This document shows, piece by piece, positions 20,042 to 20,497 of a DNA stretch of 64,000 nt. A program made the translations under genes and the position numbers. The stretch comes from Escherichia coli. Its GTDB lineage: Bacteria; Pseudomonadota; Gammaproteobacteria; Enterobacterales; Enterobacteriaceae. Within the stretch, counting starts at the first letter, position 1. Each line of letters opens with the position of its first letter. The notes under the pieces are model-generated. The model was not told the origin of the DNA, made no database searches, and saw nothing but the letters and a program-made list of their open reading frames with translations. The DNA is taken from NCBI RefSeq assembly GCF_036507355.1, contig NZ_AP027877.1. One strand, 5' to 3'.

Positions 20042-20497
20042 TTATTTGTTGAGGAACTCACTGTTTTCTAAGCATTTGTATTTGATGTAATCGACCGCTG
20101 TCGGAGTGGTCACAGTAGCAAATTCCTCAAAGACTTTTTTCTTTTCAGTATCGACTATTGTTTTAAGCTCTTCTTTGAATTTCTTTTCTTGTCCCTCCTT
20201 CCACTCCGTGGCAATAAATAGGCATGATTTCCCCTTCTGACTAGCAATTGGATCTAATTGTGAAAGCGCCATTTCAGCTCTCTTGTAAGCCTCTTCAAAT
20301 GATACCTCTCCACCATTACGCGAAACAATTTCAACAAGCTGATTAGCTAATTTGCTCTTTTGTTGTTCTGCCAATCTCCCGGACATTTCAGCCAATGCTC
20401 CGGCATGTACAGTGGCAGTAGCCAAGAGTGTAAGTGTGATAATAGCTATACTTTTCAATTTCTTGTCCTTATTTGTTGTTATGTGAACATATCCCAT
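20042..20497 (-). CDS. small predicted secreted/periplasmic protein (138-151 aa), island cargo
   Basis: N-terminal signal-peptide-like segment KLKSIAIITLTLLATATVHA/GA; Lys/Glu-rich mature part with two Cys; alternative TTG start at 20458 has a better SD (AAGGA). Confidence 0.55.
   Translation of the reverse strand: MGYVHITTNKDKKLKSIAIITLTLLATATVHAGALAEMSGRLAEQQKSKLANQLVEIVSRNGGEVSFEEAYKRAEMALSQLDPIASQKGKSCLFIATEWKEGQEKKFKEELKTIVDTEKKKVFEEFATVTTPTAVDYIKYKCLENSEFLNK

What the first reader, a model, noticed from the sequence alone, without database searches (positions are those of the whole stretch)
20042..20497. Small predicted secreted protein carried as island cargo
The N-terminus has a classical signal-peptide profile (basic n-region, hydrophobic LTLLATATV core, VHA/GA cleavage-like site). 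The mature part is ~120 aa, Lys/Glu-rich, with two cysteines. It lies between the replication module and the small-gene cluster. Exported proteins on satellites or prophages are often superinfection-exclusion or host-interaction factors.
Basis: inference. Interest (0 to 1): 0.5.

Follow-up and report, generated by a model that had tools for sequence, protein, structure and literature searches.

The report
Exported helical protein on phage satellite
A real gene for a small exported, disulfide-containing helical protein of unknown family sits as optional cargo in the accessory slot of an 8-kb phage-satellite island in E. coli, which makes it a reasonable but untested candidate for blocking incoming phages at the cell envelope.

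Summary
The ORF is real and under purifying selection (dN/dS 0.09-0.46). Its start should move from the ATG (20497) to the TTG at 20458, giving 138 aa. That is a 19-aa signal peptide (MKSIAIITLTLLATATVHA|GA) and a 119-aa Lys/Glu-rich mature protein with two invariant cysteines. Seven relatives have unrelated N-termini that all keep the n/h/A-x-A signal-peptide design, so export is well supported.

AlphaFold gives a confident all-helical model (pLDDT 92.5). It has no significant neighbour in the PDB or BFVD, and no Pfam, PHROG, NCBIfam or PADLOC family matches. The family is tiny: about 20 clusters among 5.8 billion proteins.

The gene lies in an 8.1-kb int-AlpA-toprim/DUF927 island (PICI-like satellite) inserted in the 3' end of yicC. 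It is the first gene after the replicase, its terminator and an iteron cluster. This slot is variable: it holds the window allele, a 41%-identical allele, or nothing.

In 16 of 20 E. coli carriers the gene abuts or overlaps a zinc-ribbon/TM2 membrane protein gene, which is absent here. Distant relatives sit in phages, one beside a holin/spanin cassette and others near the head of a block of replication genes.

Function is untested. My best guess (about 0.35) is envelope-level phage exclusion, analogous to but not homologous with T4 Spackle/Imm.

The parts
20042..20458 (-). Revised CDS of the exported protein (138 aa, TTG start; stop codon 20042-20044)
   Evidence: ORF. RefSeq start. The TTG and SD are conserved while the upstream ATG extension is not. 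dN/dS 0.09-0.46.
20459..20497 (-). 13-codon upstream extension of the maximal ORF (ATG 20497), probably 5' leader rather than coding
   Evidence: DAM homologue has in-frame stops here, and L011/L012 have GTG instead of ATG.
20402..20458 (-). Signal peptide, residues 1-19 (M-KSIAIITLTLLATATV-HA | GA)
   Evidence: Hydropathy. The signal-peptide design is conserved despite sequence turnover.
20045..20401 (-). Mature 119-aa domain, predicted all-helical (helices 2-28, 35-47, 60-81, 85-112)
   Evidence: AlphaFold2 mature model, pLDDT 92.5, pTM 0.85. Full-length model pLDDT 86.
20222..20224 (-). Cys79 codon (Cys60 of the mature protein), in invariant motif K-S-C-L-x-I at the start of helix 3
   Evidence: Invariant. 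Codon read.
20072..20074 (-). Cys129 codon (Cys110 of the mature protein), in invariant motif D-Y-I-x-x-x-C-L at the end of helix 4. Inferred disulfide partner of Cys79.
   Evidence: Invariant.
20466..20470 (-). Shine-Dalgarno AAGGA, 7 nt before the TTG
   Evidence: Sequence. An AGGA core is conserved in all compared homologues; DAM reads GAAGGA, one base further from the TTG.
20503..20511 (-). Candidate extended -10 promoter element TGaGATAAT (weak -35). Would place the transcription start near 20494-20496.
   Evidence: Read. Identical in the window, J6, L008, L011 and L012; DAM has a similarly placed TGgATTAAT. The consensus scan did not call it, so this is an inference.
20556..20668 (.). 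Iteron cluster B: TGTCCC(A/G)T, 3 direct copies, an AT-rich 44-nt spacer, 2 exact inverted copies plus a degenerate third, 1 direct copy. Likely replicase-binding site (ori or crr-like) directly upstream of the gene.
   Evidence: 15 matches in the window against 3.1 expected; 6 of them are in this cluster and 6 in its twin at 25050-25158.
20730..20753 (-). Intrinsic terminator (9-bp stem, T-run) ending the replicase operon, which separates the gene transcriptionally from DUF927
19977..20029 (-). Stable hairpin just after the stop codon (-21 kcal/mol, z = -2.9), without a U-tract
19639..20722 (.). Variable accessory slot of the island. PI24-type islands diverge from 20722 down to 19639. J6-type islands diverge from 20348 (codon 37 of the gene) down to 19639.
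   Evidence: 99.4-99.6% identity on the integrase side of the slot, 90.5% on the other side, nothing alignable inside.
18504..26638 (-). The 8.1-kb island: int 25182-26441, 283-aa HTH protein 24144-24995, AlpA 23857-24030, 159-aa ORF 23399-23878, toprim 22462-23388, DUF927 20759-22465, slot, then 134-aa, 62-aa and 97-aa genes (19234-19638, 19049-19237, 18648-18941)
   Evidence: Boundaries from the empty K-12 site.
18483..18503 (.). att repeat, left copy (displaced original 3' end of yicC); perfect 11-bp core TTCTGAATCTG
26618..26638 (.). att repeat, right copy, forming the present 3' end of yicC (same last 6 codons, different stop codon)

Best explanation
The gene encodes a Sec-exported protein. 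A 19-residue signal peptide is removed after V-H-A. This releases a soluble 13.4-kDa protein into the periplasm that folds into a bundle of four main helices, with a helix-3/helix-4 hairpin stapled by one disulfide (Cys79-Cys129). The gene is optional cargo of an 8.1-kb PICI-like phage satellite integrated in the 3' end of yicC. It occupies the accessory slot right after the replicase gene, behind that operon's terminator, and probably has its own promoter, so it would be made in the uninduced lysogen-like state. I think its most likely job is to act in the envelope against incoming phages (superinfection-exclusion type), for example by binding a periplasm-exposed phage component during tail penetration or DNA injection. 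In most relatives it would do this together with a zinc-ribbon/TM2 inner-membrane partner that the window copy lacks. Shown here: the gene is real and constrained, the signal-peptide design is conserved, the cysteines are invariant, the model is helical, the slot is variable, and the family is restricted to satellites and phages. Inferred: export, the disulfide, the promoter, and all of the function.
For: Gene reality: dN/dS 0.09-0.46 and invariant motifs. Export: seven unrelated signal-peptide sequences keep the n/h/c design and a -3/-1 small-residue site before the conserved mature start, and there is a single hydrophobic segment. Fold: pLDDT 92.5, all-helical. Cargo status: allele replacement or an empty slot in closely related islands; GC 0.39 against about 0.51-0.53; an upstream terminator; a conserved extended -10. 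Mobile-element restriction: every satellite-borne member whose context was recovered is the first or second gene after the replicase of an int-AlpA-replicase island, the other gene in the slot being its TM2 partner. This holds across three unrelated replicase types (DUF927, DUF3987, D5) that share the 134/62/97-aa module. Distant members are in phages, one right after a holin and Rz-like spanin and others near the head of a block of co-oriented DNA-replication genes. Hotspot: the accessory region downstream of the PICI pri gene is a published location of anti-phage genes (PMC11364771, read). Precedent: T4 Spackle is a signal-peptide-bearing small helical bundle with one disulfide that works in the periplasm alongside the membrane protein Imm (PMC7677548). 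Faster divergence of the periplasmic protein (39-76% identity) than of its TM2 partner (about 81-100% among the 99-aa forms) fits a specificity subunit.
Confidence: 0.35

Rival explanations
1. Lysis or cell-wall modulator. The periplasmic protein binds a phage lysis component (the periplasmic domain of a holin or antiholin, a spanin, or an endolysin or tail lysozyme) and shifts the timing of lysis. This could let the satellite gain time for its own packaging or protect the cell from lysis from without.
For: The most distant family member (P0018) lies 61 nt downstream of a holin (phrog_2508) and an Rz-like spanin (phrog_312) that contains an embedded lipobox-bearing reading frame, and all are co-oriented. 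P0017 and P0023 lie about 0.9-1.3 kb from a divergently transcribed holin-GH108 endolysin pair. The protein is periplasmic, which is where these targets act.
Against: The end of a lysis cassette is also a classic moron position (lambda bor; from memory). In the Erwinia-RF1-like phage the gene is co-oriented with replication genes, not with the lysis genes. There is no fold similarity to T4 RI or other solved lysis regulators in the Foldseek PDB search. The satellite itself has no lysis genes.
Confidence: 0.15
2. Antidote or regulator of the TM2 membrane protein. The two genes form a toxin-immunity or abortive-infection pair, in which the zinc-ribbon/TM2 protein damages the inner membrane and the periplasmic protein restrains it. 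The window copy would then be an orphan immunity gene.
For: The two genes abut or overlap in either order, by 8 nt or 1 nt in most loci and with an 11-nt gap in ET915. In 5,426 complete E. coli genomes the TM2 gene occurs in 16, always beside a family member, while the periplasmic gene occurs alone in 4 more and in several metagenomic islands. This is the asymmetry expected if TM2 alone is harmful.
Against: The counts reflect few independent lineages. A two-helix TM2 protein exposes only a short loop to the periplasm, which gives a 119-aa soluble protein little to hold (inferred topology). There is no PADLOC hit for either protein. TM2 toxicity is unknown. The solo form is frequent and well conserved, which suggests a function of its own.
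Confidence: 0.15
3. Host-benefit factor unrelated to phages. Candidates are a periplasmic stress or chaperone-like protein, a virulence or colonisation factor, or an orphan immunity protein against periplasm-acting bacteriocins or T6SS effectors.
For: Mobile elements often carry such exported morons. Small helical periplasmic immunity proteins with disulfides are known (from memory, not tested). The gene probably has its own promoter and is separated from the replicase operon by a terminator.
Confidence: 0.15
4. Core function of the satellite life cycle (needed for induction, replication or transfer), not cargo.
For: The position is conserved immediately after the replicase and next to the iterons in islands with three different replicase types.
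Against: Five islands that are otherwise almost the same (99.6% DNA identity for PI24) have an empty slot. A periplasmic location is hard to reconcile with replication or packaging. Alleles 41% identical are swapped between 99%-identical backbones.
Confidence: 0.05

Closest known systems
T4 Spackle (gp61.3), acting with Imm in superinfection exclusion
   Same: A cleaved periplasmic targeting signal, a small compact alpha-helical bundle, and a single disulfide joining an N-proximal and a C-proximal cysteine. It is encoded by a mobile element and acts alongside a small membrane protein (PMC7677548). Relatives of the window gene are paired with a small two-helix membrane protein.
Accessory (immune) region downstream of pri in Gram-negative PICIs, e.g. 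the Tai tail-assembly-inhibition genes
   Same: Same place in the same kind of element: a variable slot directly after the primase/replicase gene of an int-alpA-pri island, carrying single genes unknown to DefenseFinder or PADLOC (PMC11364771).
   Different: Tai homologues are mostly phage-borne and act on tail assembly, which should place them in the cytoplasm (my inference). This protein has a signal peptide and gave no tblastn match in 50,697 phage records. No anti-phage activity has been shown.
Phage morons for exported envelope proteins (lambda Bor, phi80 Cor, T5 Llp) - recalled from memory
   Same: A small exported protein, an autonomous transcription unit, atypical GC, and location at module boundaries, including the end of the lysis cassette (for P0018).
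   Different: Those are lipoproteins with a lipobox cysteine. This protein has an SPase-I type A-x-A site and no cysteine near the cleavage site, so it should be soluble in the periplasm.
T4 RI antiholin (periplasmic helical domain binding holin T) - recalled from memory
   Same: A small, helical, periplasm-located phage protein. One relative lies in a holin-spanin cassette.
   Different: RI uses a signal-anchor-release domain. No fold match was found in the Foldseek PDB search. The satellite carries no holin.

Membership tests
Sec/SPase-I exported proteins (cleavable signal peptide) | Short basic n-region followed by a 7-15-residue hydrophobic h-region | tested here: met
   M-K-S then IAIITLTLLATATV. 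Kyte-Doolittle 15-residue maximum 2.06, and it is the only hydrophobic segment.
Sec/SPase-I exported proteins (cleavable signal peptide) | Small uncharged residues at -3 and -1 of the cleavage site, conserved as a property across relatives | tested here: met
   VHA, LHA, AQA, AQA, TNA, AHA and SQA occur before a G/S start in seven otherwise unalignable N-termini.
Sec/SPase-I exported proteins (cleavable signal peptide) | Demonstrated export and cleavage | not testable with these tools
   Needs SignalP, PhoA/Bla fusions, or N-terminal sequencing or mass spectrometry.
Bacterial lipoproteins (Cor/Llp/Bor-type exclusion or moron lipoproteins) | Lipobox L-x-x-C with cysteine at +1 | tested here: not met
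   No cysteine within 59 residues of the cleavage site.
T4 Spackle family | Sequence or fold similarity to Spackle (PDB 6X6O/6XC0) | tested here: not met
T4 Spackle family | Periplasmic small helical bundle with one disulfide | tested here: met
   Predicted only: signal peptide, all-helical model with pLDDT 92.5, two invariant Cys. This is resemblance in kind, not homology.
T4 Spackle family | Inhibits tail-spike lysozyme | not testable with these tools
   Biochemical assay needed.
PICI-type phage satellite (the carrier island) | Tyrosine integrase at one end with a specific att site and flanking direct repeats | tested here: met
   Integrase 25182-26441. 21-bp imperfect repeats at 18483-18503 and 26618-26638 in the yicC 3' end, with the empty site in K-12.
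PICI-type phage satellite (the carrier island) | AlpA-type regulator | tested here: met
   Window 23857-24030: PF05930 E 1.2e-10, above the gathering score.
PICI-type phage satellite (the carrier island) | Primase/replicase with an adjacent iteron origin | tested here: met
   Toprim_3 and DUF927 proteins. TGTCCC(A/G)T iteron clusters at 20556-20668 and 25050-25158. Origin function itself is inferred.
PICI-type phage satellite (the carrier island) | Small size and no phage structural or lysis genes | tested here: met
   8.1 kb. No structural or lysis family hits in Pfam or PHROGs for the island ORFs.
PICI-type phage satellite (the carrier island) | Packaging hijack determinant (Rpp/TerS, cos or pac) | tested here: inconclusive
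   The 134-aa protein has no match to solved RppC or any PDB chain. There is no lambda or P2 cos sequence in the island. The related DUF3987/D5 islands carry a DUF5681 gene that this island lacks.
PICI-type phage satellite (the carrier island) | Induction and transfer by a helper phage | not testable with these tools
   Experimental.
Tai (tail assembly inhibition) defence genes of the same PICI slot | Sequence homology to Tai proteins, which are mostly phage-borne (e.g. phi80 orf63) | tested here: not met
   tblastn of the protein against 50,697 phage records gave no match at E<=1. Caveat: I did not verify that phi80 is in that collection.
Periplasmic protein + zinc-ribbon/TM2 two-gene module (defined here from relatives) | Adjacent, abutting or overlapping TM2-domain gene | tested here: not met
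   No TM2 homologue anywhere in the 64-kb window (tblastn), although it is present in 16 of 20 E. coli carriers.
Moron (autonomous cargo unit) | Own promoter and terminator, deviant composition, presence/absence polymorphism | tested here: inconclusive
   Upstream operon terminator, GC 0.39 against 0.51 and an empty slot in 5 islands are met. The promoter is only a conserved extended -10 read by eye, and the downstream hairpin lacks a U-tract.

The most novel reading that the evidence does not exclude
The family is the specificity subunit of a previously undescribed envelope-level anti-phage module carried by PICI-like satellites and some phages. It would consist of a disulfide-stapled periplasmic helical protein, working alone or with a zinc-ribbon/TM2 inner-membrane protein, that blocks tail penetration or DNA injection of competing phages while sparing the helper. 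The fold has no solved relative.
Probability: 0.25. Interest if true: 0.6.

Novelty: new member of a known kind. Interest (0 to 1): 0.4.

Why it matters
Satellite accessory slots have repeatedly yielded new anti-phage genes, and almost all known ones act in the cytoplasm. A periplasmic, satellite-borne factor would add to the very short list of soluble periplasmic exclusion proteins, of which T4 Spackle is essentially the only structurally understood one. It would also give TM2-domain proteins, a widespread family without a bacterial function that I know of or found in a limited literature search, a first testable role. If instead it is an ordinary moron of minor effect, the result still documents a clean case of allele and cassette swapping in a defined slot of a small satellite family that combines three replicase types with one shared small-gene module.

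Tried and rejected
- **Family searches:** Pfam, PHROGs, NCBIfam and PADLOC gave nothing for the protein. Two NCBIfam hits (E 0.02-0.05, far below cutoff) and a PADLOC AbiEi hit for P0013 (E 5e-4, a cytoplasmic wHTH antitoxin) are treated as noise.
- **PDB sequence and profile search:** only designed helical repeats at E >= 0.01.
- **tblastn of three family members against phage and plasmid collections:** no match.
- **Rfam on the island:** only a sub-threshold palindrome hit at iteron cluster A.
- **TM2 remnant downstream of the gene in the window:** none.
- **Rpp/TerS-like identity of the 134-aa neighbour:** no support.
- **lambda or P2 cos sites:** none in the island.
- **EcCIMP1 PICI paper:** a different island at a different site.
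- **ATG start at 20497:** rejected.
- **Chance ORF or pseudogene:** rejected.
- **Lipoprotein:** rejected (no lipobox).
- **Core satellite gene:** rejected (empty slots).

Full report
**1. What is at the coordinates**

The window holds a 151-codon ORF on the minus strand at 20042..20497.
- There is one hydrophobic segment near the N-terminus, and no other.
- There is a V-H-A|G-A site.
- The mature part is 119 aa (13.4 kDa, pI 5.7, 17 Glu, 16 Lys) with two cysteines.

The start codon needs correcting.
- RefSeq annotates the 100%-identical gene of strain MARGA_3 as 417 nt (WP_140027432.1, 'hypothetical protein'). That start is the TTG at 20458.
- An AAGGA sits 7 nt upstream of this TTG.
- The TTG and an AGGA core of the SD are kept in all compared islands.
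- The upstream extension contains in-frame stops in strain DAM. It begins with GTG instead of ATG in L011/L012.

The protein is therefore 138 aa: MKSIAIITLTLLATATVHA | GALAEMSG...

**2. It is a real, constrained gene**

- The word-indexed search of 5.8 billion proteins found 12 clusters with the single sequence and 20 with a profile.
- An exhaustive HMM scan of 1.84 billion cluster representatives found 9 hits. Eight are true and one is a repeat protein.
- Over the mature region, dN/dS is 0.09-0.46 wherever dS is measurable. Synonymous sites are saturated between the major alleles.
- Down to 26% identity the alignment keeps K15, G30, L49, K-S-C-L-x-I and D-Y-I-x-x-x-C-L in mature numbering, including both cysteines.

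**3. Export**

Seven members have N-termini that cannot be aligned with one another:
- MKSIAIITLTLLATATVHA
- MKRITIITLALLTSTTLHA
- MNTPMKLVVAAAMATISISAQA
- MRNLISLGLILAMSASAQA
- MKPMINTVFGLTIFLFAFPTNA
- MKKLVLAVITSILLSSGAHA
- MKFKLAIAALIFASAGSQA

Each has a basic n-region, a 10-15-residue hydrophobic core and small residues at -3/-1, directly followed by the conserved mature start. Conservation of the property without the sequence is the signature of a cleavable Sec signal peptide. There is no lipobox. Export itself remains a prediction.

**4. Structure**

- AlphaFold2 on the full alignment gave pLDDT 86, with only the signal peptide disordered.
- On the mature domain with 11 sequences it gave pLDDT 92.5 and pTM 0.85, with helices 2-28, 35-47, 60-81 and 85-112.
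- Cys60 opens helix 3 and Cys110 closes helix 4 of an antiparallel hairpin, so a stapling disulfide is likely.

No solved or viral predicted structure resembles the model:
- Foldseek against the PDB gave a best E of 3.3.
- BFVD gave a best E of 0.25.
- No Pfam, PHROG, NCBIfam or PADLOC family matches.

**5. The carrier**

Comparison with the empty K-12 site places an 8.1-kb insertion (18504-26638) in the 3' end of yicC. It is flanked by 21-bp imperfect repeats, and the island-proximal copy restores the last six codons of yicC with a different stop codon.

Read on the minus strand, the island encodes:
- a tyrosine integrase;
- a 283-aa HTH protein;
- AlpA (PF05930, E 1e-10);
- a 159-aa ORF;
- a toprim protein;
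- a DUF927 protein;
- the slot;
- genes of 134, 62 and 97 aa.

It has no structural or lysis genes. By gene content it is a PICI-like satellite. Helper dependence and the packaging determinant could not be tested or found.

A strong intrinsic terminator (20753-20730) follows DUF927. Next comes a cluster of TGTCCC(A/G)T iterons around an AT-rich spacer (20556-20668), with a twin cluster between int and the regulator (25050-25158). This arrangement recalls P4 ori/crr (from memory). A conserved TGnGATAAT extended -10 at 20511-20503 would start transcription about 38 nt before the TTG. This is an inference.

**6. Cargo status**

- The J6 island is 99.4% identical to the window from yicC down to 20349 (codon 37 of the gene). 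It is then unalignable until 19638, then 90.6% identical.
- The PI24 island is 99.6% identical down to 20723, then different until 19638.

The slot therefore carries one of the following:
- the window allele;
- a 41%-identical allele followed by a TM2 gene (J6 and DAM types);
- a 53%-identical solo allele (L008/L009);
- nothing (PI24, F95, CP131, ET490, ET881).

Among 5,426 complete E. coli genomes:
- 4 have the window allele;
- 14 have the gene-then-TM2 form at yicC;
- 2 have the TM2-then-gene form, in a DUF3987 ('YfjI family') island between yhbW and ubiV;
- 5 have the yicC island with an empty slot.

The gene's GC is 0.39, against 0.51-0.53 for the island core genes.

**7. Wider context**

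Every satellite-borne member whose context was recovered is the first or second gene after the replicase of an int-AlpA-replicase island, the other gene in the slot being its TM2 partner. Three unrelated replicases are involved:
- toprim plus DUF927;
- DUF3987;
- Zn-ribbon primase plus D5 helicase, in Enterobacter hormaechei.

These islands nevertheless share homologues of the 134-, 62- and 97-aa proteins, at 55-90% identity in most.

The zinc-ribbon/TM2 partner is 99 aa, or 144 aa with a double zinc ribbon in L018. It abuts or overlaps the gene in either order. Its sequence is much more conserved (about 81-100% among the 99-aa forms) than the periplasmic protein's (39-76%). In E. coli it never occurs without the family gene: 16 of 16. 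The window has no TM2 gene.

The three most distant members are in phage contigs:
- P0018 lies 61 nt after a holin and an Rz-like spanin that contains an embedded reading frame with a lipobox, and before an HNH endonuclease.
- P0017 and P0023 are in a phage distantly related to Erwinia phage RF1. There they are the third or fourth gene of a rightward block of co-oriented genes that continues into replication genes (AAA_24, DUF669, helicase, thymidylate synthase, DNA polymerase A). This block diverges from a holin-GH108 endolysin pair.

No member occurs in 50,697 GenBank phage records or 72,556 plasmids.

**8. Mechanism**

What is shown:
- the gene is constrained;
- the signal-peptide design is conserved;
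- the two cysteines are invariant;
- the model is confidently helical;
- the family is restricted to satellites and phages;
- the slot is variable;
- the TM2 gene is a recurrent neighbour.

What is inferred is the function. The region downstream of pri in Gram-negative PICIs has been shown experimentally to carry anti-phage genes (Tai; PMC11364771).

The closest analogue in design is T4 Spackle. It has a cleaved signal and a 75-aa helical bundle with one disulfide. It inhibits the gp5 tail lysozyme in the periplasm and acts with the membrane protein Imm (PMC7677548). No homology to Spackle was detectable, so this is 'may work like', not 'is a member of'.

I rank the explanations as follows:

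| Explanation | Estimate |
|---|---|
| Envelope-level exclusion of incoming phages | about 0.35 |
| Lysis-timing modulation | 0.15 |
| Antidote or regulator of the TM2 protein, with the window copy an orphan | 0.15 |
| Phage-unrelated host-benefit factor | 0.15 |
| Core satellite function (contradicted by the empty slots) | 0.05 |

**9. Verdict**

The function is open.

In kind this is a familiar object, an exported moron in a satellite accessory hotspot. Its fold is orphan, its family is very rare, and it has a consistent TM2 partner in relatives. These features make it a sensible, moderately interesting candidate for a phage-exclusion screen.

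Noticed in passing
window 20556-20668 and 25050-25158: There are two clusters of the 8-mer TGTCCC(A/G)T. Each has about 3 direct copies, a roughly 40-nt spacer (AT-rich at 20582-20625) and 2-4 inverted copies. One lies after the DUF927 gene and one between int and the regulator gene. Twelve of the window's 15 matches are in these clusters, against 3.1 expected. The layout recalls a two-site (P4 ori/crr-like) origin arrangement for a toprim+DUF927 replicase.
   Followed up: partly
window 17439-18261 (minus strand): dinD matches the intact dinD of strain MARGA_3 in three different reading frames (tblastn pieces 18261-18028, 18043-17747, 17750-17439). That implies two frameshifts, so it is either a pseudogene or the result of assembly indels in this genome.
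   Followed up: partly
L001 5678-5977; L004 7702-8001; L007 7702-8001; L018 2806-3240; L022 4379-4678; L023 7428-7727: A 99-aa (144-aa in L018) zinc-ribbon plus TM2-domain membrane protein gene abuts or overlaps the family gene, in either gene order. In complete E. coli genomes it occurs only next to a family member (16 of 16). PHROGs place it in phage families of unknown function.
   Followed up: partly
window 18648-19638; L004 9535-10605; L007 9535-10514; L016 7904-8924: The 134-, 62- and 97-aa proteins are shared, at 55-90% identity in most, by islands that have different integrases, integration sites and three unrelated replicase types. This points to a conserved, uncharacterised helper-exploitation module that defines a satellite family. 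There is no match to Rpp, TerS or any Pfam or PHROG function.
   Followed up: partly
window 19645-19705 (minus strand): Upstream of the 134-aa gene there is a TATAAT flanked by two copies of an 18-bp motif (GTACCAGCAAGCTAGTAC and GTACCCTCACGCTAGTAC), which looks like a promoter with operator sites.
   Followed up: no
window 23445-25014: The regulatory module (AlpA, the 283-aa HTH protein and the neighbouring ORF) is replaced in strain MARGA_3, although that strain shares the identical cargo gene. J6 shares the regulatory module but not the cargo allele. The island is therefore a mosaic of at least three exchangeable segments.
   Followed up: partly
window 18483-18503 and 26618-26638: The island integrates into the last codons of yicC and supplies a replacement 3' end encoding the same amino acids (QIQNIE, with a different stop codon). 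No tRNA is involved; no tRNA gene was found anywhere in the window.
   Followed up: yes
window 39000-44000: This stretch has markedly low GC (0.31-0.37 against about 0.52). From the gene order I would guess it is the LPS core (waa) cluster, but I did not examine it.
   Followed up: no
L021 519-956: In the phage contig carrying the distant homologue P0018, the Rz-like spanin gene contains an embedded +1-frame ORF with a lipobox (LSAGC), that is, an embedded o-spanin. This confirms a bona fide lysis cassette.
   Followed up: partly
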